Positions 10,740 through 38,435 of a stretch of 64,000 nt of DNA are shown one piece after another. This DNA is from a virus, in IMG/VR virus record IMGVR_UViG_3300042893_001849; one strand, written 5' to 3'. The stretch's first letter is position 1. Each line of letters begins with the position of its first letter. The notes beneath the pieces are model-generated. The model saw nothing but the letters and a program-made list of their open reading frames with translations, had not been told where the DNA came from and did not search any database. The translations under genes and the position numbers were made by a program.

Positions 10740-11342
10740 ATGGTCGAAAATAAATTAAAAGAAAGCCCTAAAGTTTTAGGATTAGATGTTTCTACTCGAA
10801 CAATCGGAGTAGCTTTGTTTGATATTCAAGATAAAATATTATTAGAATTAACCCATATATCACCAGTTCCAAAACCAAAAGTTGAGAATAAGATTGAAGA
10901 ACTAATTTTAAAAAGTAATATTTTTAGAGAAAAACTTAGAGGATATGTTGGTATGGGAATTACCAGTGTAGTTATCGAAGAGCCACTTCTAAACTCAAAC
11001 AACGTATATACAGTTGGAACCTTAATGAGGTTTAATACTTTAGTATGTAAAGAAGTTTATGAAATATTAGGAGTTGTGCCTGAATTCATTTCAACATATA
11101 ACTCAAGAAAATTTGCATTCCCACACCTAGTTCAATCAAATGACAAAGGAAAACACGTTTTATTTGGAGGTCTACCAAAAGATATAGATAAAAAAGTTAT
11201 TATATGGGAATTGGTTGCAAAAAAAGAACCACAAATTATTTGGCAATACACCAAAAACAACACACTCAAGAAAGAAAACTTTGACCAATCTGATGCCTAT
11301 TGTGCAGCCCTTGGTTATATGAAGATGAAAGAAATTTGGTAA
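10740..11342 (+). CDS. RuvC-like Holliday junction resolvase.
   Basis: VLGLDVSTRTIGVALFD (catalytic Asp motif I), VIEEPLL (Glu) and a C-terminal DQSDAYCAALGY (DxxDAxxxAL motif). Confidence 0.55.
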   Translation: MVENKLKESPKVLGLDVSTRTIGVALFDIQDKILLELTHISPVPKPKVENKIEELILKSNIFREKLRGYVGMGITSVVIEEPLLNSNNVYTVGTLMRFNTLVCKEVYEILGVVPEFISTYNSRKFAFPHLVQSNDKGKHVLFGGLPKDIDKKVIIWELVAKKEPQIIWQYTKNNTLKKENFDQSDAYCAALGYMKMKEIW

Positions 11343-11370
11343 ATCCAAACCTTTTCACTATCTTTGTGGT

Positions 11371-11736
11371 ATGCCACGATATACCATAGACGACACCGAA
11401 TCCAAAGCTATTAAGAAATCACTTGTTAAATGGGGAGAAATTCCTGTTAGAAATCAAGGCCTTAAAGGTACTATCATAATTAAAAATTATCGTAAGTATC
11501 AATATAGAAGTGAGGTTGATATTGAATTCAAGGGAGAAATTTTTGTTAGACTCTATAACGAAAATAGAAAGTGGTATAGTTCCGACATCATTACTAATGG
11601 AAGAGTTAGTGTTTCCAAAGTCAAATTAAATCGATACATCAGAAAAAACTCTTTGAAAGATATTCAAATGAGAATGAGATATTTTGGTGTTAATATAGAT
11701 GAGTATCAGAATGTCAACAAAATAAAATGGTCTTAA
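11371..11736 (+). CDS. Hypothetical protein.
   Basis: TATCTTTG promoter box 4 nt upstream of the ATG. Confidence 0.45.
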   Translation: MPRYTIDDTESKAIKKSLVKWGEIPVRNQGLKGTIIIKNYRKYQYRSEVDIEFKGEIFVRLYNENRKWYSSDIITNGRVSVSKVKLNRYIRKNSLKDIQMRMRYFGVNIDEYQNVNKIKWS

Positions 11737-11919
11737 TATGATAATAATTGCCTATATATGGATTTTTTTCCTTATGTTCACCTCAATATTTTTTGTTATG
11801 ATGATAACGGTTGAAAAAAATATTGATGAAAATTCACGATTTGGTAAATGGTGGAGAAACAACATAATTGGGATAGAACCAAAAGATGACATTACCGAAT
11901 AATTTACTATCTTTATAAT

Positions 11920-12834
11920 ATGTCAGATGAGATAGAAGTATTAGTAGAGTTACTTACAGATGTGTTGGGGAAACCCAAACAACACTACGAGTCCAAAGGT
12001 CAAATATCATTTGATTGTCCTGTCTGTGCTGAAGATAAGGGGTTAGACCATGGTGATGGTAAAGGTAACCTTGAGATTAACTACGGTAAACACGTTTATA
12101 AGTGCTGGTCTTGTGGTGAAACATACGGAACTCAAGGACCTCTTGGTAAGTTATTTGACAAACACGGAACCAAAGCTCAAAAAAAACTATACAATTTAAT
12201 CAAACCTGAGGAGTTAAAGAAAGAAGACCTTAAACGACCAACATTAAGACTTCCTGAAGGTTATACAACCTTTAAAGATTCAAACGCAAGGTTTATACCA
12301 CACATTGAAGCCATGAGGTATCTTACCTCAAGAGGTATTACCGAAGAAATTATTGAGAAGTATAAGATAGGGTATACCGTATCAGGAGACTTCGCCTATA
12401 GAATTATTGTCCCATCCTTCAACACTGAAGGTACTTTAAACTATTTTGTTGCAAGGGCGTGGATATCAAACAAAATGAAATACAAGAACCCGACGGTTCC
12501 TAAAGATGAGATTATATTTAACGAGGGATTAATTGATTGGGAGAAAGATGTCTATTTGGTTGAAGGAGCATTTGACGGATTCTTTTTAGAAAACTCTATT
12601 GTAATGTTAGGGAAGAAGATGAGTAAGTTATTGTTTGAAAACTTATACAACAGAGCCAATGGGAATATAATCATCTGTACTGACGGTGATGCATGGAAAG
12701 ATGGACTAAAACTATACCACGAGTTAAACGGTGGTAGATTATATAACAAAATAAAAATTGTTAAATTACCTGGTGATAAAGACATCTGTGATTTACGAGG
12801 ACAAATAGATGAGTATTACTATGAAATTAAATAA
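11920..12834 (+). CDS. DNA primase (zinc ribbon plus Toprim).
   Basis: CPVCAEDKG...YKCWSCGE zinc-binding pairs and a VEGAFDGFF Toprim motif. Confidence 0.6.
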   Translation: MSDEIEVLVELLTDVLGKPKQHYESKGQISFDCPVCAEDKGLDHGDGKGNLEINYGKHVYKCWSCGETYGTQGPLGKLFDKHGTKAQKKLYNLIKPEELKKEDLKRPTLRLPEGYTTFKDSNARFIPHIEAMRYLTSRGITEEIIEKYKIGYTVSGDFAYRIIVPSFNTEGTLNYFVARAWISNKMKYKNPTVPKDEIIFNEGLIDWEKDVYLVEGAFDGFFLENSIVMLGKKMSKLLFENLYNRANGNIIICTDGDAWKDGLKLYHELNGGRLYNKIKIVKLPGDKDICDLRGQIDEYYYEIK

Positions 12835-13657
12835 AGTAGCTGAAGAAATCAGGGAGTTAATCGCTCAAAGACAACAAGAACTTGGACTAACCTTTGAAGA
12901 GGAAGACCACATATACACAATGAACGGAAAGAAGGATTACCCTTCAGTTTCCAAAGTATTAAAGAAGTTCTATACTGAGTTCCCAACTGAGGAGGCGGCT
13001 TATAATAAAGCAGGTGGAGACCCACAAAGACAACAAGAATTAATTGAAGAGTGGGCTGCGGCTGGTGAGTATTCAACTAACATGGGAAGTCGTGTTCACT
13101 TTGTATTAGAGAGCGAACTCATTAAAAGAAATGGGAATTATAAAGAGGTGAGACAACCTGACTTCAACTGTGATTTAACACAGATGATGAAGGGTGATAA
13201 TATGATTGTTGCGGGTAACAAGTATCTCAAGTTAATGGAGGAAAGAGGAGCGGTTCTATTAGACACGGAGATGGTTCTTGGAGACCCTGAATTAGGATAC
13301 ACAGGACAACCCGATAAGATTTGGTTAATGATGAACAGACTTAATACTGAGTTTGGATTAGTTATCACGGATTGGAAAACTAATAAACCAAAGAACTTTC
13401 TCGTAACAAATTATACTAAGAAAATGTTACAACCATTCACCAAATATGATGACACGGCACTTGGCCACTACTACCTTCAACTACCCTTATATGGTAAGTT
13501 ATTAAAGAAGATGTTAAAAGGTACCAAATATGAAGACATTAAATTATTTGGATGTGTTATATCACATCTTAAAGATGACACTCAATATGATGAATATAAA
13601 GTACCTCAAGATGTTATTGATATCATAATGGACATGGATATGAAAAAATATTTGTAA
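12809..13657 (+). CDS. PD-(D/E)xK family exonuclease (RecB/Cas4/lambda-exo-like).
   Basis: GQPDKIWLM ... LVITDWKTNK (D...D/ExK motif). Confidence 0.5.
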   Translation: MSITMKLNKVAEEIRELIAQRQQELGLTFEEEDHIYTMNGKKDYPSVSKVLKKFYTEFPTEEAAYNKAGGDPQRQQELIEEWAAAGEYSTNMGSRVHFVLESELIKRNGNYKEVRQPDFNCDLTQMMKGDNMIVAGNKYLKLMEERGAVLLDTEMVLGDPELGYTGQPDKIWLMMNRLNTEFGLVITDWKTNKPKNFLVTNYTKKMLQPFTKYDDTALGHYYLQLPLYGKLLKKMLKGTKYEDIKLFGCVISHLKDDTQYDEYKVPQDVIDIIMDMDMKKYL

Positions 13658-13713
13658 AAACGAATATTATTTATTATATTTTTTAAGACTTATAAAAGAA
13701 AATAAAACACAAT

Positions 13714-14722: not shown

Positions 14723-14723
14723 T

Positions 14724-16002: not shown

Positions 16003-16003
16003 T

Positions 16004-16384: not shown

Positions 16385-18763
16385 ATGAAATGGGATTTAT
16401 TCAATCCACCACCAACGTTTAATTACAAACATATGGCGACAAAGCTAGATACAACTACTTTGGATAATCCGTACATCCAAGTCATTTGGGAGGATACACC
16501 AGAGAATTTTACTCAAGAGAGGATTAAGTCGGTAAAACAGTACTTCATGAAGAAGTACGCCTCTTCTAACATCAACGTAATCACAAAGGTGAAGACGACT
16601 GATGATACACAACAAACCGTTGATGTTTCTGTGAACATCATGGACAAAAACTACCAAATAGAGTTAATCAAGTCATTACTTGAAGCTAAGGGACAAGACC
16701 AATACTTGGACCAAGTTATGAATATTGACCTTGCGGTAGAAAACAGAATGGCGGCCAACGAAGTTGAGGTTACTCCATTCAAAAGATGGTACATCAAAAA
16801 GATTGAGTTTAGTAACTTCTTATCTTATGGTGAGAACCAAGTAATCGACTTCGAGAAGTGTAATGGTATTACCGTGGTTGAATCAGACCCACCTAACTTT
16901 GGTGGTAAGACTGTATTGACTGTGGACTTACTATTGTTCTTGTTCTTTAACACCACTACGAAGACACAGAAAGCAGAAGAAATCTTTAATAGATTTACAG
17001 ACATTAACAAGGTTAGTGTTAAGGGTGACATTGTGATTGACGGAGAGGAATATGTTATTGCTCGTCAGATTGAACGAAAGAAATCCAAAGCTGGAGAATG
17101 GAATGTTAAGACAGAACTTGAGTTCTTTAAAAAACTTGCTGATGGTCAACTTCAGAACTTCACAGGTGAACAACGTAGAGAGACTGAAGAATTCATGAAA
17201 AAATCTATTGGAACGATGGATGACTTCTTGATGACAATTGTCACAACTGCGTCAAACCTTGAGGATTTATTGGATGCAAAACCAACAGCTCGTGGTCAGG
17301 TACTAAGCCGTTTCTTAGGTCTTGAATTCTTGAAGAAGAAGGAAGAGACAGGTAAGGAAATTTACTCTGAGTTCTCAAAAGGAATGATGTCTAATGTGTA
17401 TAACACAGAGTCTTTGAAACAAGACAACGAGACATCATCTGAAGAGATTACTCGAATGAAGAATGAAATTAAAGACATGACCAATAAAATTGGTGACGTT
17501 GATAATAGACTTCAGAAGGGACAAGAGTATAAGGACAATCTACTCGGGTCTAAATTCACAGACTTGGACAAAGAGTTGATTGTTCTTAATCCTATCAAAT
17601 TACAATCTGATATTTCAGACCTTGAAGGTTCAAGTGAAAGAATCAAAGGACAAATCAAAGATGTTAAAATCGTTGAACCTAAAGAGTTCTATCATGAAGA
17701 CAAACATGATGAGATTAAAGATGAACTAAGAAAAACGGGAGATGACCTACTCATTGCCAACAAGGAGGTTATGGATATTAAAACCCTAATCGAAAAGTAT
17801 GGTGATGGTATTCAATGTGAGCACTGCGGAATCAAATTGATGGAAGCGGCTCTCACAAAGAAAAAAATTGATGAGTTAAAGGATTGGGAAAAGAAAGTTA
17901 AGGCTCTTGATAAAGAGTATGAAAAACTTGACAAGAAAGAAAAATCCTATACTCAACTTAAGAAAGACTTTGACGAATACGAGAGAAACAAACTTATCAA
18001 GGAGAAACACGAGTTATCGTTGGAATCCAATGATTTGAAGTTAGCTAGTGTCAAAGACAAACTTAAGAGATACGAAGAAGTTCAGGACAAGATTAAAAAG
18101 AACAATGAGATTGATGCCCAACTGGTGAAAGCTGGTTTACGTATTGACGAATTGATTGGAGAGAAGAGGGGGTATGAGAAAATTCAAAATACCAATGGAA
18201 CTCAAATTGAAAACCTTGAAGCTCGTATCGAAAAGAATAACGGATTCATTCTTAGAATTGCCGAGGAGTTTGAACGTGAGAAGATTTATAAAATCTACGT
18301 TGACATCTATGGTAAGAACGGAATATCCAAAATTATTATGAAGACAATGATGCCATTGATTAACTCTGAACTTCAGAGATTACTTCAGGACTCTTGTTTA
18401 TTCAACTTGGAAATTCGTATCAATGATAAGAATGAGGTTGACTTTATAATGATTGATAACGGAACAGGGATTGAGAAACCATTGACTGCAGGTTCAGGAT
18501 ATGAAAAAACAATAGGGGCACTCGCTATCAGAGCAGTACTTGCTAAGGTATGTTCACTTCCAAAACCAAACATATCGGTATATGACGAGACGTGGGGTAA
18601 AATTTCTAACGACAATATGGAGATGATTGGAGATTTTTTTAAAAAATTAAAAGATTACTTTGAAAAAATATTTTTAATTTCCCATAATGGACTTATATCC
18701 AATTTCGCGGATAATGTAATTCATATTACAAAAACCGATAACATTTCAAAAGTCTCACAATAG
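16385..18763 (+). CDS. sbcC: SbcC/Rad50-like SMC ATPase.
   Basis: N-terminal P-loop (PPNFGGKTV), long coiled coil with a CxxC zinc hook (GIQCEHCG) and a C-terminal signature/Walker B region (VYDETWG, LISHN). Confidence 0.75.
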   Translation: MKWDLFNPPPTFNYKHMATKLDTTTLDNPYIQVIWEDTPENFTQERIKSVKQYFMKKYASSNINVITKVKTTDDTQQTVDVSVNIMDKNYQIELIKSLLEAKGQDQYLDQVMNIDLAVENRMAANEVEVTPFKRWYIKKIEFSNFLSYGENQVIDFEKCNGITVVESDPPNFGGKTVLTVDLLLFLFFNTTTKTQKAEEIFNRFTDINKVSVKGDIVIDGEEYVIARQIERKKSKAGEWNVKTELEFFKKLADGQLQNFTGEQRRETEEFMKKSIGTMDDFLMTIVTTASNLEDLLDAKPTARGQVLSRFLGLEFLKKKEETGKEIYSEFSKGMMSNVYNTESLKQDNETSSEEITRMKNEIKDMTNKIGDVDNRLQKGQEYKDNLLGSKFTDLDKELIVLNPIKLQSDISDLEGSSERIKGQIKDVKIVEPKEFYHEDKHDEIKDELRKTGDDLLIANKEVMDIKTLIEKYGDGIQCEHCGIKLMEAALTKKKIDELKDWEKKVKALDKEYEKLDKKEKSYTQLKKDFDEYERNKLIKEKHELSLESNDLKLASVKDKLKRYEEVQDKIKKNNEIDAQLVKAGLRIDELIGEKRGYEKIQNTNGTQIENLEARIEKNNGFILRIAEEFEREKIYKIYVDIYGKNGISKIIMKTMMPLINSELQRLLQDSCLFNLEIRINDKNEVDFIMIDNGTGIEKPLTAGSGYEKTIGALAIRAVLAKVCSLPKPNISVYDETWGKISNDNMEMIGDFFKKLKDYFEKIFLISHNGLISNFADNVIHITKTDNISKVSQ

Positions 18764-18810
18764 TGAAGAGATAGAACCATACATACTAAAAGAATTAGGA
18801 ATTAAATAGA

Positions 18811-18836
18811 CCCCACCCATAAAGTGGGGTTTTTTA
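18811..18836 (+). terminator. Rho-independent terminator.
   Basis: CCCCACCCATAAAGTGGGG hairpin followed by T6. Confidence 0.6.
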
Positions 18837-18865
18837 TTTCAAATATTTTTTGTTATATTTGTTCT

Positions 18866-19507
18866 ATGAAAAAATCAAAACATGGTATGACAAGTGAGCA
18901 AGCCCGTCAAAAAAAATTAATGGGTCATAATAATGAGAACATTGTTGCTAATGAAGTTGGTGGTATTGTATTGACAGGAAATAAAAAAGGAGATATTAGA
19001 ACTTTTGAGGATAAGACAATTTCAGTGAAGACAGGAACTAAAACGCAGTGGTCTCTTTATTGTGAGAACACTATGATTAGTGGGGATTGGAACAAAATTC
19101 AAAAAAAATCATTAATAGATTATATTAATTTCTTACCTGATTCAAAGGAGGATTATGAAAATAATAGAGCTAAATATAGAATAAACCCTTACGCCTCTGA
19201 TTTATATAGTGCATTCAAGCATGATTATATGAAGTTAATAAAGTTTTTTTGTGGATATGGTAAAGTAGATTTATTTCATTTAACTGACATAAGAGATAGT
19301 GAAAGTTATCAAGTATCTTCAAATGATTTTTTTGAGAGTATTAAAAACTCTATAACAAGAATATATACAACACCTGGTGGTAAATTTGTTATTGCGGGAG
19401 GCAGAAAGGACACCATTTTATTTGAGTTAGAATTAAGGAAAGGTACCAACCATAAAAAAATTTTATTTCACTCTCATTTGTCTCGTATCATTGATGTTGT
19501 GAAGTAA
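18866..19507 (+). CDS. Hypothetical protein.
   Basis: Start moved to MKKSKHGM, because the earlier ATG lies inside the terminator hairpin. TATATTTG box 4 nt upstream. The N-terminal approximately 45 nt are homologous to 21844-21888. Confidence 0.45.
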   Translation: MKKSKHGMTSEQARQKKLMGHNNENIVANEVGGIVLTGNKKGDIRTFEDKTISVKTGTKTQWSLYCENTMISGDWNKIQKKSLIDYINFLPDSKEDYENNRAKYRINPYASDLYSAFKHDYMKLIKFFCGYGKVDLFHLTDIRDSESYQVSSNDFFESIKNSITRIYTTPGGKFVIAGGRKDTILFELELRKGTNHKKILFHSHLSRIIDVVK

Positions 19508-20413: not shown

Positions 20414-20423
20414 ATAATACTAA

Positions 20424-20446
20424 CCCCACCCACAATTGGGGTTTTA
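20424..20446 (+). terminator. Rho-independent terminator.
   Basis: CCCCACCCACAATTGGGG hairpin followed by a T-run. Confidence 0.55.
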
Positions 20447-20482
20447 TTTTGCCATTTAATTAATTATGTATATCTTTGTTGC

Positions 20483-21088
20483 ATGACAAACGCCTACCTA
20501 TACCTTGCAACAGATGGAGTAAACGATTTCAAAAAATTTGGAATTGCCGCGAATGCTAACATCCGTTTAATCAACTACAACACTACAGAACACTTAAGAC
20601 CAATTTATTTTGAAAAGGTATTTGTGTTTGATAGTTACAATGAAGCCCGAGACGCGGAGACTAACCTCAGACAAAATCTAAAGAAATTTATCATACAGAC
20701 TCAACACATTGAAACTTTTGTATGGAATAATGAAACTAAAGAGATGTTTAATGAGTTAACCAAAGACTATACTTTAATTGAATTCTCTAATGATTATGTA
20801 GGCAATTTACAGAACAAAAAATTTCCATACCATGAAGAGTTAGTTAAATTAATAAACTATGCGGTTGAGAGTGGAATTCCAAAGAAGACAGTGGAGAAGT
20901 TGGTTATTAAAAGTCGTGTAGGATATTATCGTGAAGATGCTCCTCCTAGAATTGTAATGGAAGACCGAATCAAACATCTGGTTAGACTAACTAACAAGGA
21001 ACTATGTTGGGATAACAAACCAAGAATTTTGGATAGAATGCAAAGATTATATACCTTTGAAGAACAAATTAAAACAATATTGGCATAA
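20483..21088 (+). CDS. T5orf172/MUG113 domain protein (GIY-YIG superfamily).
   Basis: AYLYLATDGVNDFKKFGIAANANIRLINY resembles the T5orf172 core (YVYIL..G.YKIGIT.N...R). Confidence 0.45.
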   Translation: MTNAYLYLATDGVNDFKKFGIAANANIRLINYNTTEHLRPIYFEKVFVFDSYNEARDAETNLRQNLKKFIIQTQHIETFVWNNETKEMFNELTKDYTLIEFSNDYVGNLQNKKFPYHEELVKLINYAVESGIPKKTVEKLVIKSRVGYYREDAPPRIVMEDRIKHLVRLTNKELCWDNKPRILDRMQRLYTFEEQIKTILA

Positions 21089-21171
21089 TGCAAACATTCT
21101 TACCATACTCTGATATTACAGAATCATTAAGGGTTCTTGACAACAAACGTTTAGGTAAACAACGTGGTTAA
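21088..21171 (+). pseudogene. Truncated duplicate of the first 26 codons of gene 22005..22478, ending in a stop after the junction.
   Basis: 21088-21166 match 22005-22083 in 78 of 79 nt. Then a novel junction is followed by a copy of the sbcC 3' end. Confidence 0.6.
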
Positions 21172-21200
21172 AATTACAAAAACCGATAATATTTCAAAAG

Positions 21201-21230
21201 TCTCACAATAAAATGTGAGATTTTTTTTTA
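21201..21230 (+). terminator. Rho-independent terminator.
   Basis: TCTCACAATAAAATGTGAGA hairpin followed by T9. Confidence 0.6.
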
Positions 21231-21300
21231 AAATATTTTACAGAAAAACTTTACGTAATTAAATAATTATACTATATTTATAAAAAATAAAAATATAATT

Positions 21301-21936
21301 ATGGAAAAAAATTTAGTAGATTTAATTAACAAAATTCAGAGCAAGCGTGGGGAAGATGCTTTTGAAGTGTCAAACAATCCCATCTCAGAAGCATTAAACC
21401 AAGAAAAAGACCTTAAAGTTGTCTATGATGAAGGTGATTTAACAAAGAACTTTGTTAAATTCGCAACAGACTTGTTGTCTGGTAAATTTGGTGACTATTT
21501 TATAGAAGAGGTTATTAAAGGGTTTGGTGAAACCCTTAAGACGGACAAGGGAGATTTTAAAGAGTCCTATCGAAACAAACCATCTTCAATTAAAGAAATA
21601 TTACCAAGTGTGTTCATTCATACATCTATGAGTAAAATTTTGATGGAAAGTTTAATTATTGACTTAATAACTAAAGCAAGATTAACGGTTAAGTTTTACT
21701 CTCTTGAAAAAAGAAATGATTGGACATTAGAGTTAATTATGAGGGAAGCCAAAAAATATGATACAATGACTGGTTTCAGTAGAGGCAATTCAAATGCTTA
21801 TAGTGCGGCTATTAAACTTGGCATTAAAGAAGCGGTTCAAGTTCACATGAAAAAATCAAAACACGGAATGGGTAATGAGCAAGCTCGTAGAGAGACTCCT
21901 GAACAACGTCGTAGAGAAAAAATGAAAAATGATTAA
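21301..21936 (+). CDS. Hypothetical protein.
   Basis: 211 aa. The C-terminal MKKSKHGMGNEQARR segment is homologous to the N-terminus of 18866..19507. Confidence 0.45.
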   Translation: MEKNLVDLINKIQSKRGEDAFEVSNNPISEALNQEKDLKVVYDEGDLTKNFVKFATDLLSGKFGDYFIEEVIKGFGETLKTDKGDFKESYRNKPSSIKEILPSVFIHTSMSKILMESLIIDLITKARLTVKFYSLEKRNDWTLELIMREAKKYDTMTGFSRGNSNAYSAAIKLGIKEAVQVHMKKSKHGMGNEQARRETPEQRRREKMKND

Positions 21937-21943
21937 TTTTAAA

Positions 21944-21971
21944 CCCCACCCAAAAAGGTGGGATTTTTTTT
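21944..21971 (+). terminator. Rho-independent terminator.
   Basis: CCCACCCAAAAAGGTGGG hairpin followed by T8. Confidence 0.6.
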
Positions 21972-22004
21972 TGTTTATCTTAAAATAATACATATCTTTG
22001 TGGT

Positions 22005-22478
22005 ATGCAAACATTCTTACCATACTCTGACATTACAGAATCATTAAGGGTTCTTGACAACAAACGTTTAGGTAAACAACGTGTGGAGACCTTTCAAATT
22101 ATAAATGCAATTACTGGCAGACCAAAGTTGGATGGTACCCCCTACAAAGGGTGGTTAAACCATCCATGTTCTGTTATGTGGAGACAACACGTACCCTTAC
22201 TCAAGATGTACTTAAATGCAAGTATTGACGAGTGGGTACGTCGTGGGTTTAAGAATACCATGACCAAAGAAGTGATTGATGAATCTGTAACCTACCCTGA
22301 TTGGTGGGGTAATCAAAAGTTTCATGACTCACACAAGTCTAACCTATTGAAGAAAGATTTTGATTTTTATTCTCAATATAGGTGGACTGCGGAACCAACC
22401 AATCCATATGTTTGGTTAGATAAAGATGGTAAGTGGTACGAACAACATTCAGGAGAGAAAGGAAAAATATATTTTTAA
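22005..22478 (+). CDS. Possible pyrimidine-dimer DNA glycosylase family (Pyr_excise-like) protein.
   Basis: LDNKRLGKQRVE...KGWLNHP resembles bacterial endonuclease-V-like proteins (LD.KGL...REALLA...KGYKNHP). The match is weak. TATCTTTG box 4 nt upstream of the ATG. Confidence 0.3.
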   Translation: MQTFLPYSDITESLRVLDNKRLGKQRVETFQIINAITGRPKLDGTPYKGWLNHPCSVMWRQHVPLLKMYLNASIDEWVRRGFKNTMTKEVIDESVTYPDWWGNQKFHDSHKSNLLKKDFDFYSQYRWTAEPTNPYVWLDKDGKWYEQHSGEKGKIYF

Positions 22479-22962: not shown

Positions 22963-22998
22963 AATAAAAATATTACATTTGTCAAAATTAAAATATTA

Positions 22999-23520: not shown

Positions 23521-24318
23521 ATGAAAGAAAAATCATCAATTCCTATCAATCAAGAAGAGATTAGTAATTACTTGAAGGACATTCGTAAACTGAAAGTAAT
23601 GACTCCTGAAAGAGAACGAGAGTTAGCTGAAAGAATGCTATCTGGTTTTATAACAGAAGAAGAAACAAAAGAAATTCAAAAAGAACTTTTGGAAGGTAAT
23701 CTACGTTTTGTTATTACCGTGAGTAAACAATATCAAAACCAAGGGTTGGACCTACCTGATTTAATTGCGGAAGGTAACCTTGGATTGATGAAAGCAATCG
23801 AGCATTTCGATTGGTCTAAACAATTAAGATTCATATCTTATGCCGTTTGGTGGGTTCGCCAATCTATCTTGCAATCATTGAATGAAAATGCAAGAACCAT
23901 CCGTCTACCAGTAAACGTGGTTCAAGAATTGCATAAAGCAAAGAAAGAATTGGAGAAGGCAGGTGTTGACCTACCTGAAAAATTCGTAAACTTACCTTAT
24001 ACGGTGAACTTGGATAGTCCATTGAACGAGGAGGGAGATACGTTATTGGATGTGTTGAATAACCCTAATGCTGATTTGGCAGATGCCAATCTATCTACGG
24101 AACAGACATTAAAAGAGAAGTTATTATCAATGTTGGACGTTTTGGATGAGAGAGAAAAAATAATTATTCAAGATTATTTCGGGTTGTCTGGTTCAACAAG
24201 AACCTTGGAAGACATAGGTAATGACTTTGATTTAACCAAAGAAAGGGTTCGACAGATTAAGGAAAAAGCTCTTCGAAAATTAAGAAATGAAACAGCTATT
24301 CTTTTCGAATATCTATAA
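23521..24318 (+). CDS. RNA polymerase sigma factor (sigma-70 family).
   Basis: Region 2 (NLRFVITVSKQY...DLIAEGNLGLMKAIEHFD) and region 4 (TLEDIGNDFDLTKERVRQIKEKALRKLR) helix-turn-helix. Confidence 0.8.
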   Translation: MKEKSSIPINQEEISNYLKDIRKLKVMTPERERELAERMLSGFITEEETKEIQKELLEGNLRFVITVSKQYQNQGLDLPDLIAEGNLGLMKAIEHFDWSKQLRFISYAVWWVRQSILQSLNENARTIRLPVNVVQELHKAKKELEKAGVDLPEKFVNLPYTVNLDSPLNEEGDTLLDVLNNPNADLADANLSTEQTLKEKLLSMLDVLDEREKIIIQDYFGLSGSTRTLEDIGNDFDLTKERVRQIKEKALRKLRNETAILFEYL

Positions 24319-30393: not shown

Positions 30394-30576
30394 ATGGAAA
30401 CATTAGAACAAATTAAAGTATTAACTGAATTACTTTCAGTGGACACAACAAAATTCTTTAACGGAAACAAAAGTGCTGGTACCAGAGCTAGAAAATCTGC
30501 ACAAGAGTTGAAAGCATTACTTCAACAATTAAGAGGCGAAGTTTTAGAGCGCAACAAGACAGAAAAGAATGCATAA
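30394..30576 (+). CDS. Hypothetical small basic protein.
   Basis: 60 aa, KSAGTRARKSAQELK. Confidence 0.3.
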   Translation: METLEQIKVLTELLSVDTTKFFNGNKSAGTRARKSAQELKALLQQLRGEVLERNKTEKNA

Positions 30577-34198: not shown

Positions 34199-34242
34199 TT
34201 ATTTTTGCATTCCCAACATATTTATTAATAAATAAAAATCAG

Positions 34243-35565
34243 ATGAAATTTACGTCGTTATTAAAAAACATCATAGCAGAACAATCAAGGTTTGAAGTTT
34301 TGTTTAATGCTTTGACAAAACCAAGTGAGGATAAGAATGGTGTTAAGGTAAAACCCAAGCTAGATAAGAAAGAATTTATTGAATTAGTTAAGGCAGACCC
34401 AACAACAAAATTGAATAATATTGAAATTGATACGGCGAATTCTGACCAATTAGCTAAGGTAAAGGCGGGAGCGTATGTTCAATGGTTAATTAAGAATTAT
34501 TTAAACCCGAAGACTGAAAGACAGTATGGTGATAATGGTTATGAAAAAGAGGTTAAGCAGGTTAAAGCGACTTTTATGGAAGACCTTTATAAAGTTACTG
34601 ATGACCTTAAAAAGTTTGAAAGATTCAAAGGTAGATTACCTAAAGAATTAAGAGATATTAATAAGATTACTCCTGACCAACTATATGACGCGGTTAAAGA
34701 TTTTGATTTAACATTGGCATCAACAACTAAAGCTGAAAGAAAATCTGCTGAGGTTCACCCTGGTGCTAAATTAATGTATGACGGTGATAATTGGAGAGTA
34801 ATTGAAATTAAAGATAAGGGAGTTGTTGGTAAAGAGGCGGCTTGTTTCTACGGTGGTAATAACCAAGAAACAAGATGGTGTACATCTGCACCTGGTGCTT
34901 CATGGTTTGATAGATATATTAAGGATGGTCCTTTATATGTGATATTCAATCCAAACGATACAGACCTTGCTCCATCAACAGGATTACCTAAAACTCGTTA
35001 TCAATTCCATTTCCCATCAAACCAATTTATGGATAAGGATGACCGTCAACAAGATTTGGTTCAATTACTTAACGGACCAATGGCAGAATTGAAATCATTC
35101 TTTAAACCTGAGTTTGCTAAAGGTCTTACTGTGGGTGGAGAGAAATTGGTTATTGATAGTTTCAGTCATGGAGCAATCGGTAAGTTCATCGCTCTTTATG
35201 GTTTAGATGATTTAATTGGAAGTTTACCTGAATCACTAAAAGAATTCCAAATTCAAAACAGAGGTAATGATAACAAAAACGTTATTATTACTATCCCTGA
35301 AGAGATTGGAAGATTTAAAGATTTGAATATGATTCTATTGGATAACTGCATTACATCTATCCCTGAATCAATCTGTACATTACCTAAATTGAGATTCTTA
35401 GCGTTAATTAATAACCCTGAATTAAGAACAATTCCTGATTGTATTGCAGATTTACCTAATTTATATTTCTTGAACTTGAAAGGTTCTACCAATGTTGAGG
35501 TACCTGAAGCGATTAAGGCTAAAGGAACTGATATGGGCGGAGGTATGTGGGACCTTCAAGACTAA
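34243..35565 (+). CDS. Protein with an N-terminal conserved domain (paralog of 43192..44793) and C-terminal leucine-rich repeats.
   Basis: ACFYGGNNQETRWCTSAPGASWFDRY matches SCYYGKGTKWCTAAETDTHF in 43192. The C-terminal region has LRR-like periodicity (LxxLxLxNxxIxxIP). Confidence 0.45.
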   Translation: MKFTSLLKNIIAEQSRFEVLFNALTKPSEDKNGVKVKPKLDKKEFIELVKADPTTKLNNIEIDTANSDQLAKVKAGAYVQWLIKNYLNPKTERQYGDNGYEKEVKQVKATFMEDLYKVTDDLKKFERFKGRLPKELRDINKITPDQLYDAVKDFDLTLASTTKAERKSAEVHPGAKLMYDGDNWRVIEIKDKGVVGKEAACFYGGNNQETRWCTSAPGASWFDRYIKDGPLYVIFNPNDTDLAPSTGLPKTRYQFHFPSNQFMDKDDRQQDLVQLLNGPMAELKSFFKPEFAKGLTVGGEKLVIDSFSHGAIGKFIALYGLDDLIGSLPESLKEFQIQNRGNDNKNVIITIPEEIGRFKDLNMILLDNCITSIPESICTLPKLRFLALINNPELRTIPDCIADLPNLYFLNLKGSTNVEVPEAIKAKGTDMGGGMWDLQD

Positions 35566-35591
35566 TTGTTTAACAACTAACTGACTATACT

Positions 35592-35942
35592 ATGAGTGTT
35601 GATGTTGAGATATACATGAATAACATCGTTAAATTCTTTAGAGAAAATCCGAACGACCTTCTTAACTTGGTTCCAAAGACCAAGGAGGAAGAGTTTTATT
35701 CTAAGCTACGTGAAGTTGCTTTTCAAAACTACGAAAATGGAGAAGAAGTTAATTTAACTCGAGAACAAATTATTGAGATTTGTGCTAATATTCATGGTAA
35801 GACTAAGAAGGTCAGAGAAGAAAAGAAAGAACCTACAAAATCTTTAACGATTGATGAAATTTTAAAACATCCCAAATATCAAGAACTTTCATTAGACCAC
35901 TTGATAATTTCAACCCAATTTGGAAAATATTCTTTAAATTAA
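35592..35942 (+). CDS. Hypothetical protein.
   Basis: 116 aa. Confidence 0.35.
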   Translation: MSVDVEIYMNNIVKFFRENPNDLLNLVPKTKEEEFYSKLREVAFQNYENGEEVNLTREQIIEICANIHGKTKKVREEKKEPTKSLTIDEILKHPKYQELSLDHLIISTQFGKYSLN

Positions 35943-35995
35943 TTAGGCTGGTAATTTTATTGGGCGTATATTTGTAATCTAAACAAATCAGATAT

Positions 35996-36745
35996 ATGTT
36001 GTCAATCGAAACCCTACATGAAGTTGCTCCATCAGTATTCGCAACTAGTCCATCTCCGAAAATGTCGGACAAGTACACATTCGTTCCTACCATCGAAGTT
36101 GTTGAAAACTTTGATAGAGAAGGTTGGAAAGTTTATTCAGCCTCGCAAGTTGGTAAAGGTCAATTTGCTCAGCACGAGTTGCGTCTTCGTAATGGTGACT
36201 TACCACAAGTTGGTGATTCATTAATCGAGGCGGTAATTAGAAACTCGCACAATGGATTAAGTTCATTCTCTGTGAGCTCAGGTCTTCACCGTTTGGTATG
36301 TTCTAACGGACTTACTGTACCTACCTCAGTTTCCGATTCAATTGCCGTGAAACACATGAAAATTGATATGGGAGCTGTAAGACAAATCACAGACCAATTC
36401 GCAGAGAGATTACCGATTGTACAGAGAGCCGTGGGTAAAATGGAATCAAGTTTTATGAGCGATGCTCAGTTGGTTGATTTCGTCAACAAGTCAGCAATGA
36501 TTCGTTGGGACAAAGGTTCAATCCCTGTTATTAAAATGGAGGACTTCTTACGTCCTGAAAGAGATGGGGATATTGGCAACAGTGTCTGGAAGGTATTCAA
36601 TGTAATTCAAGAAAAGTTTGTTCGAGGTGGATTGAAGTATCAATCTAAAAAAGGTAGAACGACTTCAATGAAAGAGTTGAAAAATTTCTACAACATTAAC
36701 AAAGTTAATACTACACTTTGGGAGTTGGCAGAAACGTATTGTTAA
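35996..36745 (+). CDS. DUF932-like protein (phage/plasmid family).
   Basis: RNSHNGLSSF...HRLVCSNGL resembles the DUF932/TIGR03299 core (NSHDGS...R.VCSNG). Confidence 0.4.
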   Translation: MLSIETLHEVAPSVFATSPSPKMSDKYTFVPTIEVVENFDREGWKVYSASQVGKGQFAQHELRLRNGDLPQVGDSLIEAVIRNSHNGLSSFSVSSGLHRLVCSNGLTVPTSVSDSIAVKHMKIDMGAVRQITDQFAERLPIVQRAVGKMESSFMSDAQLVDFVNKSAMIRWDKGSIPVIKMEDFLRPERDGDIGNSVWKVFNVIQEKFVRGGLKYQSKKGRTTSMKELKNFYNINKVNTTLWELAETYC

Positions 36746-36794
36746 TCAAGATGGGGGACTTTGTTCCCCATTTTATTTTTCCTATATTTGTATC

Positions 36795-38435
36795 ATGAAG
36801 GTGGAGTTATTCAAACAAAGTTTCGAGAAGTATAAGTGTGTCTTTAATAAGACATCTACGCCAATTCAAAACAAGGACTTTATTTACGTTAATACTGAGG
36901 ATGTGTTTGGTGATTTAGTTAACCTCAATCAACCAACAAAGAAACACCCATTATTCGTTGTGGAAAAAGTCACTACGGATGAGGAGTCTTATATAGAGAA
37001 TTATAATAACCTTATGTGTGATGTAACTAAGTCTTACGTAATGGTTATTATTGAGAAGACAGAAGATAAAGTATCCATTAAAGTATTCAGAGGTAGTAGG
37101 AATAGACGAGCGGGTAATGTATGGTTTAAAGTCTCTCGAAATGTTGATTACATCACCGTAAATAAAAAGACTGGAGATGTTTATCATGGTTATCTACACG
37201 ATTATCAGAAGAAAAGAAAATGTGCTAAAAAGATTAGACGTAATTTCTTTTTTGCTGAACCGATAAACACTATCAAAAATATTATTCAGAACGCTTTATC
37301 TGATTATGGGGTAAACACGTATGAAATTGCAATCCGTGCGGTTTCTACATTCATGCTCGAAGTTGATGAAAGAGACGGATTTGAAAATTTAGATTTCAAC
37401 AAAAGATTATTTAGATTTTATTTGAATAAAAGACAGGTGAAATATCCAAATAATTTTTATGTGTATACTCAAATTTTAGTAGGACCTGAGATAAGAAAAA
37501 TATTAAAGAAGAACAATAATAAGTTGGTGGAGTCTTATATGATTAAGGAAGGACTATCAGGTAAGAAATTAAAGAAGGCTCTACATAATTGTGATACATT
37601 AAATATTGAACTATATAAACATGCGAGAATCCTATTTGGTGATGATTGGTTAAATCAAGATGAGGATGTTATATCTAAACTCCTCAATAGTAAGTTACAA
37701 TGTATGATAGTTCCGACTGAGTTCAAAACTTTTATTAGCCCTGAAGAACTTAAAAGAGTATATTCAATATTTAAGAGAGTTTTCATTTATGATGACTTGG
37801 ACTCTTACACTTTTTATGACCACATAAGGATGTATACGGAATTAAGGTTATATGGTGAAGATGATTTAAGATGGTATTCAGAAAATAGTAAAGAAGAGTT
37901 TAGAGAAGAACATTTAGATTGGACAGAAAAGATTCAATTCTATAAACAAGGAAACTATACCAGAACATACCCTGAATATTTCAAAGAAGTTATTGAAAAA
38001 GAAATTGATGGGTATACACCAGTGTTGTTGATGGATAGCAACTCATACAATGAGGAAAGTATGACACAATCAAATTGTGTTAAGACTTATATTGGTAAAC
38101 CGTCTTCGTTTATTGTATCATTAAGGAAAGGATTATTTGGTGATAGAGCAACTCTTGAATATAAGTTGTCCAAGAATGGGGAATATATTATCCCGATAAG
38201 AGTTCAGTCTCTTGGGAAATTTAATGGTAAGTTAGACGAAGAATGGAATGACGTTCTATTTAAATTAGACAAGGTTATATTATCTTCTATTAAAGATAAA
38301 AGATTTGAGACCGTTAAGATTATCAAAGAGTGTAAGAATGGGGTAACACTTAAATCAGACACTTATTGGGAGAATGATAATTTGAAATGGACTTATAAAA
38401 ACATTGAAACACAACATAATTGGGTTCTTTATTAA
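36795..38435 (+). CDS. Hypothetical protein.
   Basis: 546 aa. TATATTTG box 4 nt upstream of the ATG. Confidence 0.4.
   Translation: MKVELFKQSFEKYKCVFNKTSTPIQNKDFIYVNTEDVFGDLVNLNQPTKKHPLFVVEKVTTDEESYIENYNNLMCDVTKSYVMVIIEKTEDKVSIKVFRGSRNRRAGNVWFKVSRNVDYITVNKKTGDVYHGYLHDYQKKRKCAKKIRRNFFFAEPINTIKNIIQNALSDYGVNTYEIAIRAVSTFMLEVDERDGFENLDFNKRLFRFYLNKRQVKYPNNFYVYTQILVGPEIRKILKKNNNKLVESYMIKEGLSGKKLKKALHNCDTLNIELYKHARILFGDDWLNQDEDVISKLLNSKLQCMIVPTEFKTFISPEELKRVYSIFKRVFIYDDLDSYTFYDHIRMYTELRLYGEDDLRWYSENSKEEFREEHLDWTEKIQFYKQGNYTRTYPEYFKEVIEKEIDGYTPVLLMDSNSYNEESMTQSNCVKTYIGKPSSFIVSLRKGLFGDRATLEYKLSKNGEYIIPIRVQSLGKFNGKLDEEWNDVLFKLDKVILSSIKDKRFETVKIIKECKNGVTLKSDTYWENDNLKWTYKNIETQHNWVLY

What the first reader, a model, noticed from the sequence alone, without database searches (positions are those of the whole stretch)
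11333..36797. Recurrent TAnnTTTG-N4-ATG arrangement implies leaderless mRNAs; Bacteroidota-type promoter used throughout
Six genes start at 11371, 11920, 18866, 20483, 22005 and 36795. Each has a -7-type box exactly 4 nt upstream of the ATG: TATCTTTG, TATCTTTA or TATATTTG. Each box is preceded by TTTG about 20 nt further upstream, so transcription should start at or within 1-2 nt of the start codon. Three of the six share the extended TATCTTTG(T/G)GGTATG or TATCTTTGTTGCATG context. The same promoter module, with longer leaders, precedes genes or RNAs at 52475, 52779, 53020, 54062, 54680, 57881, 58425 and 60718. The motif matches the established Bacteroidota sigma-A consensus (-33 TTTG, -7 TAnnTTTG). 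That both identifies the host phylum and suggests a regulatory class of leaderless transcripts.
Basis: partly seen in the sequence, partly recalled or inferred. Interest (0 to 1): 0.6.

Follow-up and report, generated by a model that had tools for sequence, protein, structure and literature searches.

The report
Phage promoters that abut start codons
In this piece of a giant freshwater phage genome, seven genes have a Bacteroidota-type promoter box exactly four bases before their ATG, so their mRNAs should begin at the start codon; related phages keep this spacing strictly, but no transcript ends have been mapped.

Summary
The core observation is real. All six TA(T)nTTT[G/A]-N4-ATG sites exist as written, and there is a seventh (ATG 45780). 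The pattern occurs 7 times against 0.64 expected by chance. One sub-claim fails: a -33 TTTG at 19-20 nt is present at 4 of the 6 claimed sites, not at 11920 or 18866.

Published start-site maps for Flavobacterium place the -7 box at -12 to -5. N4 therefore puts +1 on the A of ATG.

Comparative data support a constraint on spacing:
- In 82 related phage loci (1.5 Mb) the box-to-ATG distance peaks sharply at 4, is near-empty from 7 to 13, and is broad from 14 to 36.
- 16 gene families show the arrangement, and the base at -1 is a pyrimidine in 44 of 50 unique sites.
- The same endoV-like start codon is leaderless only behind Bacteroidota-type boxes. Elsewhere it often carries an SD-like motif, and some contexts have a sigma-70-type promoter.

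"Used throughout" is overstated. A second motif, TATTTATW, heads about as many genes and shows the same two spacing modes. The window also encodes its own RpoD-like sigma factor.

The host phylum is inferred (no SD sequences, promoter grammar), not independently confirmed. A "regulatory class" is not shown. No transcription start site data exist. Verdict: a well-supported new example of known elements, of moderate interest.

The parts
11335..11373 (+). Leaderless unit 1: -33 TTTG (11335-11338), 20-nt spacer, -7 box TATCTTTG (11359-11366), N4 TGGT, ATG 11371 (121-aa ORF, function unknown).
   Evidence: Most orthologues keep a box at d=4, three have d=6. No terminator upstream; the -33 lies in the last codons of the preceding RuvC-like gene.
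11908..11922 (+). Leaderless unit 2 (weaker): box TATCTTTA (A instead of G at -5), N4 TAAT, ATG 11920 (DnaG-type primase, 304 aa). No -33 TTTG.
   Evidence: Several orthologues have TATATTTG at d=4, one has d=19, some have no box.
18808..18868 (+). Leaderless unit 3: intrinsic terminator 18808-18832, box TATATTTG 18854-18861, N4 TTCT, ATG 18866 (213 aa, unknown). No -33 TTTG. An in-frame ATG at codon 8 leaves the start codon ambiguous.
   Evidence: The N-terminal 42 nt resemble 21847-21888.
20422..20485 (+). Leaderless unit 4: terminator 20422-20443, -33 TTTG 20448-20451, box TATCTTTG 20471-20478, N4 TTGC, ATG 20483 (201 aa, N-terminal endonuclease-like).
   Evidence: Two orthologues also have d=4.
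21945..22007 (+). Leaderless unit 5: terminator 21945-21962, -33 TTTG 21970-21973, box TATCTTTG 21993-22000, N4 TGGT, ATG 22005 (157 aa, T4 endonuclease V-like pyrimidine dimer glycosylase).
   Evidence: (Pfam position 1 = residue 1).
36748..36797 (+). Leaderless unit 6: terminator hairpin ~36752-36772 (-15.8 kcal/mol) with the -33 TTTG (36760-36763) in its loop, box TATATTTG 36783-36790, N4 TATC, ATG 36795 (546 aa, unknown).
   Evidence: Two orthologues have d=4 (TTTA variant) and d=5.
45744..45782 (+).
52451..53027 (+). Three two-block promoters (boxes at 52475, 52779, 53020, each with AATTTGATT-type -33 at 20 nt) that precede RNAs: a short hairpin RNA plus tRNA-Met, an unidentified ~200-nt stretch, and the GOLLD RNA.
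54038..60761 (+). Leadered sigma-A-type promoters: boxes at 54062 (ATG 54092, d=22), 54680 (54707, d=19), 57881 (57911, d=22), 58425 (58455, d=22), 60718 (60759, d=33). All have a -33 TTTG, and most directly follow a terminator-like hairpin.
22974..22981 (+). Further leadered box, TACATTTG (ATG 22999, d=17). Others of the same kind are TATATTTG at 35967 (ATG 35996, d=21) and TAATTTTG at 51805 (ATG 51835, d=22, with -33).
23521..24318 (+). Phage-encoded sigma-70-family factor (265 aa; regions 1.2, 2 and 4; RpoD/SigA-like). It lies downstream of class-A promoters and is a candidate reader of the second promoter class.
8530..8544 (+). Example of the second promoter-like motif (class B): TATTTATA-N4-ATG 8542. 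Other close-spaced sites head ATGs 2010 (d=6), 4912 (3), 19526 (3), 59686 (4), 61148 (4) on +, and 42879 (4), 51820 (4), 57373 (3), 63627 (4) on -. Leadered sites head 21301 (18), 28264 (12), 34243 (16), 43192 (13), 48608 (13) and 62427- (14).
   Evidence: (6 observed against 0.51 expected for N4).

Best explanation
The window is part of a roughly 300-330 kb phage genome from freshwater. Part of its gene set, and its small RNAs, are transcribed from promoters of the Bacteroidota primary-sigma type (TTTG, 19-20 nt, TAHHTTTG).

At seven genes the -7 box ends exactly four bases before the ATG. In Bacteroidota the box occupies -12 to -5. RNA polymerase should therefore start on the A of the ATG (a pyrimidine at -1, then A, then T), giving an mRNA with no 5' untranslated region. 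Such an mRNA would be translated by the leaderless route, in which the ribosome and initiator tRNA recognise a 5'-terminal AUG. The host ribosomes do not use Shine-Dalgarno pairing in any case.

Four of the seven units sit directly after an intrinsic terminator. Each of these is a self-contained terminator-promoter-AUG cassette needing only about 35 bp of upstream DNA. This compactness probably lets such genes keep their expression signal when they are moved next to different neighbours.

Shown: the motif, its enrichment, its strand bias, the invariant spacing across relatives, the correct start codons, and the absence of SD sequences.

Inferred: the exact start site, recognition by host sigma-A, translation of the 5'-AUG transcripts, and the portability rationale.
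For: 1. Sequence and statistics. Seven N4 sites against 0.64 expected. The two-block promoter occurs 18 times on +, once on -, against about 1.1 expected.

2. Geometry from experiments in the literature. In F. johnsoniae there are 4-5 nt between box and start site, with T-12 A-11 T-8 T-7 T-6 G-5 nearly invariant (PMC6847099). In F. psychrophilum the box lies at -12 to -5 (PMC9723704).

3. Spacing constraint.
- In 82 related loci (1.54 Mb), TAT[ACT]TTTG-to-ATG distances give 60 at d=4 against 19 or fewer at any other distance, few from 7 to 13, then a broad hump from 14 to 36.
- Among unique two-block sites, 28 are at d=4, 34 at d=3-6, none at d=7-9 and 57 at d=10-60.
- Orthologues of the endoV-like gene keep d=4 while N4 varies (TGGT, TTGT, CACC, TGTC, CTCC, CATT and others) and the upstream neighbours differ.

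4. Sixteen protein families carry the arrangement. The base at -1 is a pyrimidine in 44 of 50 unique sites. Start codons at d=4 are 81 ATG, 0 GTG and 2 TTG.

5. Natural experiment. The exact 20-nt start of the endoV-like gene occurs in at least 120 metagenome contigs.
- 32 upstream contexts are box-N4-ATG. None of these has an SD-like motif, and 23 have a -33 TTTG.
- Of 81 other contexts, 42 have an SD-like 4-mer and 11 have a TTGACA-type promoter upstream of the ATG.

6. True start codon. Pfam Pyr_excise position 1 aligns with residue 1, and M1 Q2 F4 L5 P6 are invariant in 15 orthologues.

7. Independent transcription units. Terminators lie directly upstream of 18866, 20483, 22005 and 36795.

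8. The same boxes precede untranslated RNAs (tRNA-Met, GOLLD). The box is therefore a transcription signal, not a translation signal.

9. Controls. There is no d=4 peak in 100 kb of Flavobacterium phage immuto, nor in 462 kb of contigs assigned to phyla other than Bacteroidota.

10. The share is far above host values. Seven of 15 class-A protein-gene promoters are leaderless, against 3.7-13% short or absent leaders in hosts. The binomial p is 1.6e-3 or lower.
Against: - No 5'-end data exist for this phage. If the polymerase used the 5-nt option, it would start on the U and destroy the AUG.
- Two of the seven sites are weak: 11920 (TTTA, no -33) and 18866 (no -33, and an in-frame ATG at codon 8).
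- Three sites (11371, 11920, 45780) have no terminator upstream. Read-through transcripts with leaders probably also exist there.
- Some orthologues have d=5 or d=6, so leaders of 1-2 nt occur.
- The loci used for the histograms are homologous, so the counts are not independent events.
- The low 5' structure of these ORFs is shared by all gene starts and does not discriminate.
- The host phylum was not confirmed by homology.
Confidence: 0.75

Rival explanations
1. The boxes are promoters, but the transcripts are not functionally leaderless. Either initiation falls 5 nt after the box (on the U) or elsewhere, or the proteins are made mainly from longer read-through mRNAs or from downstream start codons.
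For: - F. johnsoniae promoters use both 4 and 5 nt.
- 11371, 11920 and 45780 lack an upstream terminator.
- 18866 has an in-frame ATG at codon 8.
- Some orthologues have d=5 or 6, and a few have a leadered or promoterless version of the same gene.
Against: - The strict d=4 mode with few sites at d=7-13 is hard to explain if the ATG position relative to the start site did not matter.
- Pyrimidine at -1 followed by A and T favours starting on the A.
- N-termini are conserved from residue 1.
- Four units follow terminators.
Confidence: 0.15
2. The boxes are read by the phage-encoded RpoD-like sigma factor (23521-24318) rather than by host sigma-A, so they do not report the host's promoter grammar directly.
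For: The window encodes a 265-aa sigma with regions 1.2, 2 and 4. Its region 2 keeps the aromatic residues used for -10-type recognition (alignment).
Against: - The sigma gene itself lies in a unit headed by class-A boxes (22005 and 22999) with no other motif upstream. It would need to be present before its own expression.
- The boxes match the host consensus in both blocks and in spacing.
- A second motif (TATTTATW), with no host counterpart known to me, is a more natural target for a phage sigma.
- This rival does not change the leaderless geometry.
Confidence: 0.1
3. The U-rich box plus N4 acts at the RNA level, as a ribosome-recruiting or S1-binding element in a longer mRNA, and is not a promoter at these seven sites.
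For: Bacteroidota lack SD sequences and use other upstream signals. Three sites have no terminator upstream.
Against: - The known Bacteroidota translation signal is A-rich, not U/G-rich.
- Identical boxes with a -33 TTTG precede tRNA and GOLLD RNA genes, and precede other genes at 17-33 nt.
- Five of the seven sites have the -33 block at the promoter spacing.
- Four sit just after terminators, which would remove the upstream transcript.
Confidence: 0.03
4. The arrangement is a chance product of an AT-rich genome.
For: The genome is 32.8% G+C, and TA/TTT-rich words are common. TATMTTTG alone is only about 2-fold enriched (24 against 12.5).
Against: - Seven against 0.64 for the N4-ATG pattern, with 0 of 100 shuffles reaching 7.
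- Eighteen against 1.1 for the two-block pattern.
- Strand bias, conservation across relatives and flat controls.
Confidence: 0.01

Closest known systems
Bacteroidota primary sigma (sigma-ABfr) promoters: -33 TTTG / -7 TAnnTTTG (Bayley 2000; Vingadassalom 2005; genome-wide maps in F. johnsoniae, B. thetaiotaomicron, F. psychrophilum)
   Same: Same two blocks, same 19-20 nt spacer, same preference against G at the two n positions (TAHHTTTG). They lie upstream of and co-directional with genes and RNAs, and sit in a genome without SD sequences.
   Different: They are carried by a phage, not a cell. The share of promoters that abut the start codon is about 37-47%, against 3.7-13% short or absent leaders in the mapped hosts.
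Leaderless mRNAs (lambda cI from PRM; abundant in Actinobacteria, Deinococcus-Thermus and Archaea)
   Same: The promoter's opening element sits at a fixed short distance from an AUG that is both +1 and the start codon. The start codon is ATG almost exclusively, and there is no SD sequence.
   Different: The upstream element is the Bacteroidota -7 box, not a Pribnow or TATA box. Earlier computational surveys that searched for TA-like boxes found almost none in Bacteroidetes (1 of 37 genomes, PMC3160421). No experimental 5' ends exist here.
Phage morons and free-standing homing-endonuclease cassettes (own promoter and terminator)
   Same: These are terminator-promoter-gene units placed between conserved genes. 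Neighbours vary among relatives. A 79-nt duplicated gene start marks an insertion.
   Different: The promoter is fused to the start codon, so the whole expression signal is about 35 bp. Mobility is inferred from the repeats and the variable neighbours, not shown.
T4-type late promoters (single AT-rich -10-like 8-mer TATAAATA, no -35)
   Same: The second motif here, TATTTATW, is a single AT-rich 8-mer with no upstream block. It heads many units on both strands, and a phage sigma-like factor is encoded nearby. This comparison rests on my own knowledge of T4.
   Different: The sequence differs. Many copies sit only 3-5 nt from the ATG. No gp55, gp33 or clamp homologues were looked for, and the temporal class is unknown.

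Membership tests
Bacteroidota sigma-A (sigma-ABfr) promoter | -7 element TAnnTTTG (refined to TAHHTTTG, G at -5 nearly invariant) | tested here: met
11920 has TTTA.
Bacteroidota sigma-A (sigma-ABfr) promoter | -33 element TTTG about 19-20 nt upstream of the -7 element | tested here: met
   Present at 5 of 7 leaderless sites and at 8 of 8 leadered or RNA sites. 18 on + against 1.1 expected. Absent at 11920 and 18866. The element is weak in mapped F. johnsoniae promoters too.
Bacteroidota sigma-A (sigma-ABfr) promoter | Transcription starts 4-5 nt downstream of the box (box at -12 to -5) | not testable with these tools
   No transcript data are available. The geometry is taken from PMC6847099 and PMC9723704.
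Bacteroidota sigma-A (sigma-ABfr) promoter | Recognised by host RNA polymerase with sigma-ABfr | not testable with these tools
   The host was not identified. The window also encodes an RpoD-like sigma.
Bacteroidota sigma-A (sigma-ABfr) promoter | Genomic setting: SD-poor, A-rich upstream regions, no sigma-70-type promoters | tested here: met
   Six of 90 genes have an SD-like 4-mer. G is depleted and A enriched upstream. Sigma-70-type matches number 44 against 52.8 expected.
Leaderless mRNA | The mRNA 5' end coincides with (or lies within a few nt of) the start codon | not testable with these tools
   Inferred from box geometry and the invariant d=4 spacing. Contig ends in the metagenome scan gave no usable 5'-end signal.
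Leaderless mRNA | The start codon is AUG | tested here: met
   At d=4 there are 81 ATG, 0 GTG and 2 TTG. The baseline use of ATG is also high in this genome.
Leaderless mRNA | The ATG next to the promoter is the real N-terminus | tested here: met
   For 22005, Pfam position 1 aligns with residue 1 and the N-terminus is invariant. The same ATG is used in promoterless and sigma-70/SD contexts. For 11371, 11920, 20483 and 36795, orthologues start at the same codon. 18866 is ambiguous.
Leaderless mRNA | Translated without a leader by the host ribosome | not testable with these tools
   This needs reporter assays, toeprinting or ribosome profiling.
Freshwater bS21-encoding jumbo phages of Bacteroidetes (Chen et al. 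2022, PMC9723584) | 293-331 kb genomes, 31.0-33.7% G+C, freshwater lakes | tested here: met
   The window is 32.75% G+C. Relatives in IMG/VR reach 304-326 kb.
Freshwater bS21-encoding jumbo phages of Bacteroidetes (Chen et al. 2022, PMC9723584) | Encodes bS21 next to terminase, capsid and portal genes | tested here: inconclusive
   No bS21 was found among the small window ORFs that were read by eye or among the 25 of 48 Pfam families listed for the window. bS21 scans of IMG/VR returned many large contigs, but none with the same name as the contigs related to this window. The lists were truncated. No identifier match was found in the paper's tables.

The most novel reading that the evidence does not exclude
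Leaderless expression may be a family-wide strategy of these giant phages rather than a handful of sites. Two promoter classes show the same two spacing modes: the ATG lies either about 4 nt after the box or at least 10 nt after it. One class is the host sigma-A type. The other is a phage-specific TATTTATW type, possibly read by the phage's own sigma.

If both classes fire 4-5 nt downstream, about 17 of 90 genes in the window (about 20%) would be translated from 5'-terminal AUGs. That is several-fold above the 3.7-13% of mRNAs with short or absent leaders in mapped Bacteroidota. The terminator-promoter-AUG unit would be a portable expression cassette that lets mobile genes work in any context in an SD-less host. 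It might also give phage mRNAs a distinct route to the ribosome during takeover.
Probability: 0.3. Interest if true: 0.6.

Novelty: new member of a known kind. Interest (0 to 1): 0.4.

Why it matters
Bacteroidota translate without Shine-Dalgarno pairing, and how their ribosomes choose start codons is still being worked out. Leaderless mRNAs are a small minority in the hosts mapped so far.

A phage family in which a third to a half of recognisable host-type promoters are fused to the start codon, with spacing conserved to the base, supplies a ready set of natural test substrates. These could be used to study leaderless initiation by Bacteroidota ribosomes and start-site selection by sigma-ABfr polymerase.

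Practically, it gives gene callers and promoter predictors a simple rule for such phages: box, N4, ATG. It also suggests a very compact expression module, about 35 bp of upstream DNA, for engineering Bacteroidota. None of this is a new principle, since each component is already known.

Tried and rejected
1. Nucleotide search of 20 kb against cultured or deposited phages gave no match. Protein searches found only distant relatives (22-32% identity) in an uncultured huge phage, a Microcystis phage and Flavobacterium phage immuto. These do not decide the host.

2. Host assignment through cellular homologues of the endoV-like gene failed. The best hits are scattered over archaeal and many bacterial MAGs, none Bacteroidota. 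This used the only genome-contig scan.

3. I tried to tie the window to the published bS21 jumbo phages of Bacteroidetes. There were no shared identifiers or lengths in the paper's tables. I recovered F. johnsoniae bS21 from PDB alignments and scanned IMG/VR twice. Many bS21 contigs came from the same lakes, but none shared a name with the window's relatives, and the lists were truncated. Inconclusive.

4. I hoped that some contigs in the metagenome collection would be transcript assemblies starting at the ATG. There was no such signal. The scan was nevertheless useful as a survey of upstream contexts.

5. The 5' ends of leaderless ORFs are less structured than internal segments, but so are those of leadered ORFs. 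The test does not discriminate.

6. PHROG and Pfam annotation of genes behind the TATTTATW motif returned only unknowns, so its temporal class could not be assigned.

7. A regular-expression hunt for the sigma gene failed. It was found through Pfam.

8. I considered and rejected that TATTTATW is merely a shifted sigma-A box. It lacks TTTG, has no -33 block, and the bases before it are A/G rather than TA.

Full report
**What is in the sequence**

The window is 32.75% G+C, and nearly all long ORFs lie on the + strand.

| ATG | Box, N4, start |
|---|---|
| 11371 | TATCTTTG-TGGT-ATG |
| 11920 | TATCTTTA-TAAT-ATG |
| 18866 | TATATTTG-TTCT-ATG |
| 20483 | TATCTTTG-TTGC-ATG |
| 22005 | TATCTTTG-TGGT-ATG |
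| 36795 | TATATTTG-TATC-ATG |

A pattern search found a seventh site, TATATTTG-ACTC-ATG at 45780. It opens a 72-aa ORF that heads a run of small ORFs.

The pattern TATMTTTR-N4-ATG occurs 7 times against 0.64 expected, and none of 100 dinucleotide shuffles reached 7.

The statement that every box has a TTTG about 20 nt upstream is only partly true. It holds for 11371, 20483, 22005, 36795 and 45780 (spacers of 19-20 nt). It fails for 11920 and 18866.

The two-block pattern TTTG-N19/20-TAHHTTT[GA] is found 18 times on the + strand and once on the - strand, against about 1.1 in Markov simulations.

**What kind of genome this is**

- There is no nucleotide match among deposited phages.
- A scan of IMG/VR with the SbcC-like protein (16385-18763) returned 224 relatives. 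The best 80 are at 60-86% amino-acid identity, on contigs of up to 304-326 kb. The window is therefore a piece of a jumbo phage from a large family.
- Recognisable genes in the region are a DnaG-type primase, SbcCD-like nuclease subunits, a RuvC-like resolvase, Dam-type methylases, a T4 endonuclease V-like glycosylase, T5orf172/endonuclease-like proteins, an amidase, DnaJ, thioredoxin and others.
- Shine-Dalgarno motifs are essentially absent: 6 of 90 genes have a 4-nt core. The 30 nt before start codons are A-rich and G-poor.
- Sigma-70-type promoter matches are not enriched, 44 against 52.8 expected.

**Why N4 means leaderless**

- In F. psychrophilum the box is placed at -12 to -5 (PMC9723704).
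- With four bases after the G, position +1 is the A of the ATG.
- At the seven window sites the base before the ATG is always a pyrimidine. Across 50 unique related sites it is a pyrimidine in 44. This gives pyrimidine-A-T at -1, +1, +2, a YRY triplet. A 2025 cross-phylum promoter study tracks YRY as one of its start-element triplet classes (PMC12641261). That polymerase generally prefers a pyrimidine at -1 and a purine at +1 is from my own knowledge.
- Leaderless or very short leaders are a minority in mapped hosts: 3.7% under 10 nt in B. thetaiotaomicron, 5.5% in F. psychrophilum, and 13% at 10 nt or less in F. johnsoniae.

**Comparative test of the spacing**

I projected the start codons of the seven genes onto the 82 related loci.

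- The endoV-like gene has 19 distinct upstream contexts. In 16 the box sits at exactly d=4. The N4 letters differ (TGGT, TTGT, CACC, TGTC, TGTT, CTCC, CTTC, CATT, CAGC, CACA), and the DNA further upstream is unrelated because the neighbouring genes differ. One context has the box at d=27 and two have none.
- The primase and the 11371 gene behave similarly, with a few d=6 and one d=19 variant.
- Over all 1.54 Mb of loci, the distance from TAT[ACT]TTTG to an ATG opening an ORF of at least 50 aa is 60 at d=4, at most 19 at any other distance, few from 7 to 13, and a broad hump from 14 to 36.
- Restricting to unique two-block promoters gives 28 at d=4, 34 at d=3-6, none at d=7-9, 57 at d=10-60, and 31 with no ORF start within 60 nt.
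- The d=4 sites fall into 16 protein families. Start codons there are 81 ATG, 0 GTG and 2 TTG.
- These loci are homologous, so the counts are not independent events. The divergence of N4 and of the flanks still shows that the spacing itself is maintained.

**A natural experiment**

The first 20 nt of the endoV-like gene (ATGCAAACATTCYTACCATA) occur exactly in at least 120 metagenome contigs, from lakes and also from marine samples. There are 113 distinct full-length upstream contexts.

- 32 are TAHHTTT[GA]-N4-ATG. None of these has an SD-like 4-mer, 23 have the -33 TTTG at 19-20 nt, and 13 show a terminator-like hairpin.
- Of the 81 others, 42 have an SD-like 4-mer and 11 have a TTGACA-N15-19-TATAAT-type promoter upstream of the ATG. 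Individual sequences show both a leader and an SD-like motif, for example TTGACA...TATATT...AAGGTTATAAATT-ATG.

The same start codon is therefore fused to the promoter only when the promoter is of the Bacteroidota type. This shows that the ATG is the real start. Pfam Pyr_excise position 1 also aligns with residue 1, and M1 Q2 F4 L5 P6 are invariant in 15 orthologues. It also ties the arrangement to that promoter grammar.

**Controls**

| Dataset | Box type | Result at close spacing |
|---|---|---|
| 100 kb of Flavobacterium phage immuto | 85 TAHHTTTG boxes | none at d=4 |
| 462 kb of cellular contigs assigned to other phyla | TAHHTTTG | 1 at d=4, flat distribution |

The method and the AT-richness therefore do not create the peak.

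**Anatomy of the units**

- Intrinsic terminators lie directly upstream of the promoters of 18866, 20483 and 22005. This is a family of ACCCCACCC...GGTGGGG-T-run hairpins.
- Another terminator precedes 36795 (-15.8 kcal/mol), and there the -33 TTTG sits in the hairpin loop. The same loop arrangement occurs before 60718.
- These four units are self-contained terminator-promoter-AUG cassettes.
- 11371, 11920 and 45780 follow the preceding stop codon without a terminator, so leadered read-through transcripts are likely there too.
- In the window, 7 of about 15 sigma-A-type promoters that precede protein genes are at N4. One further - strand site (ATG 63903) is at d=6.
- The leadered sites have d=17-33, that is leaders of about 13-29 nt. 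Against host fractions of 3.7-13%, this excess has a binomial p of 1.6e-3 or lower.

**What 'used throughout' misses**

A second 8-mer, TATTTATW, is just as prominent.

- It precedes 10 window genes at d=3-6 (ATGs 2010, 4912, 8542, 19526, 59686, 61148, and 42879, 51820, 57373, 63627 on the - strand).
- It precedes 6 genes at d=12-18.
- It heads five of the - strand units.
- TATTTATW-N4-ATG occurs 6 times against 0.51 expected.
- In the related loci its spacing is again bimodal, with 49 at d=4 and a second mode around 14.
- It has no upstream block and is preceded by A or G rather than TA.
- It also precedes genes in the structural (bS21) regions of other Bacteroidetes-type jumbo phages, mostly at d=18-20.
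- The genes behind it here have no annotation.

The window also encodes a 265-aa sigma-70-family protein with regions 1.2, 2 and 4. It is closest to primary sigma factors. It lies in a unit headed by class-A boxes (22005, 22999).

A simple cascade fits the layout: host sigma-A reads the TTTG/TAHHTTTG promoters, including those of the phage sigma gene, and the phage sigma then reads TATTTATW. This cascade is untested.

**Host**

The promoter grammar, the lack of SD sequences and an Hc1-type histone-like hit point to Bacteroidota. That Hc1-type proteins are common in that phylum is from my own knowledge.

A published set of freshwater phages of 293-331 kb and 31.0-33.7% G+C is predicted to infect Bacteroidetes from a CRISPR spacer and gene taxonomy (PMC9723584). 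It looks like the same kind of phage. I could not establish identity with it. Homology searches were neutral. I put the host assignment at roughly 85-90%, as an inference.

**Is it a regulatory class?**

The leaderless genes are a primase, a DNA-repair glycosylase, an endonuclease-like protein and several unknowns. What they share is architecture: each is the first gene of a short unit, often in a variable neighbourhood.

A 79-nt exact duplicate of the endoV gene start (21088-21166) lies directly after the stop of the 20483 gene. Two other repeats also link 18.7-18.9 kb with 21.2-21.9 kb.

Together these indicate that the segment of about 21167-22004 was inserted by recombination. That segment holds the 21301 gene, a terminator, the promoter and a fresh gene start. 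I read the arrangement as a compact, portable expression signal rather than a regulon. This is an inference.

**Verdict**

The leaderless reading is the best explanation, at about 0.75, but it rests on geometry and conservation, not on mapped transcripts.

All the components are known: the Bacteroidota promoter, leaderless mRNAs, and low-frequency leaderless genes in Bacteroidota. This is therefore a new member of a known kind. The unusually high frequency, and a second promoter class showing the same habit, are what make it worth an experiment.

Noticed in passing
window 53587-53994 (+), with promoter box at 53020 and terminator-like hairpin near 54027-54050: Full-length Rfam GOLLD RNA match (328.9 bits, E 1.8e-93). 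The two-block promoter at 53020 lies about 560 nt upstream, so the transcript may be about 1 kb including a 5' half that the Rfam model does not cover. This is a GOLLD RNA in a phage with Bacteroidota-type promoters.
   Followed up: partly
window 52487-52545 (+): The promoter at 52475 is followed at once by a strong hairpin (-17.2 kcal/mol) and a U-run, suggesting a small RNA of about 55-60 nt. tRNA-Met (CAT) follows at 52651-52723 after a G+C-rich stretch.
   Followed up: partly
window 52791-52990 (+): The promoter at 52779 precedes about 200 nt with no ORF and no Rfam match. Its first bases resemble the start of the transcript from the 53020 promoter (TAAAACAA...GGAGAGG). It is possibly an unclassified RNA.
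   Followed up: no
window 23521-24318 (+): Phage-encoded sigma-70-family factor of 265 aa with regions 1.2, 2 and 4. The best PDB matches are primary SigA/RpoD proteins (E about 1e-46). Region 2.4 reads WWVRQSILQSL, which I compare with WWIRQAITRSI of E. coli sigma-70 as I recall it. Region 4.2 is close to the SigA sequences shown in the PDB alignments.
   Followed up: partly
window, e.g. 8530, 4901, 19515, 59674, 61136 (+); 42891, 51832, 57384, 63639 (-): Second promoter-like motif TATTTATW, with no -33 block. It heads about 16 genes, including five minus-strand units. Its distance to the ATG is bimodal (3-6 nt or 12-18 nt) in the window and in the relatives.
   Followed up: partly
window 21088-21166 = 22005-22083; 18713-18762 ~ 21161-21210; 18866-18907 ~ 21847-21888: A 79-nt, 99% identical duplicate of the start of the endoV-like gene sits right after the stop of the 20483 gene. 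Two further repeats link the end of the SbcC-like gene and the start of the 18866 gene to the flanks of the 21301 gene. This looks like the scar of a cassette insertion that brought its own terminator, promoter and gene start.
   Followed up: partly
window 36752-36772 and 60686-60708 (+): The -33 TTTG of the downstream promoter lies in the loop of the upstream terminator hairpin, so terminator and promoter overlap.
   Followed up: partly
loci L165-L284 (metagenome contigs): The first 20 nt of the endoV-like gene are identical in at least 120 contigs from lakes and oceans, with very different promoters and ribosome-binding contexts. That is unusually strong nucleotide conservation at a gene start across phages that seem to have different hosts.
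   Followed up: partly
window 30394-30576 (+) (probable), and other ORFs: Pfam hits in the window include an Hc1 histone-like protein, DnaJ with its central and C-terminal domains, an SPFH/Band 7 protein, NUDIX, APS kinase, S-adenosylmethionine decarboxylase, thioredoxin or glutaredoxin, and three DNA methylases. Except where scanned singly, the hits were not assigned to individual ORFs.
   Followed up: no
window 4200-4250 (+): The 745-aa ORF 2010-4247 ends in a glycine run encoded by GGTGGAGGCGGAGGAGGAGGCGGAGGT. This is the source of one of the few SD-like matches upstream of the next gene.
   Followed up: no
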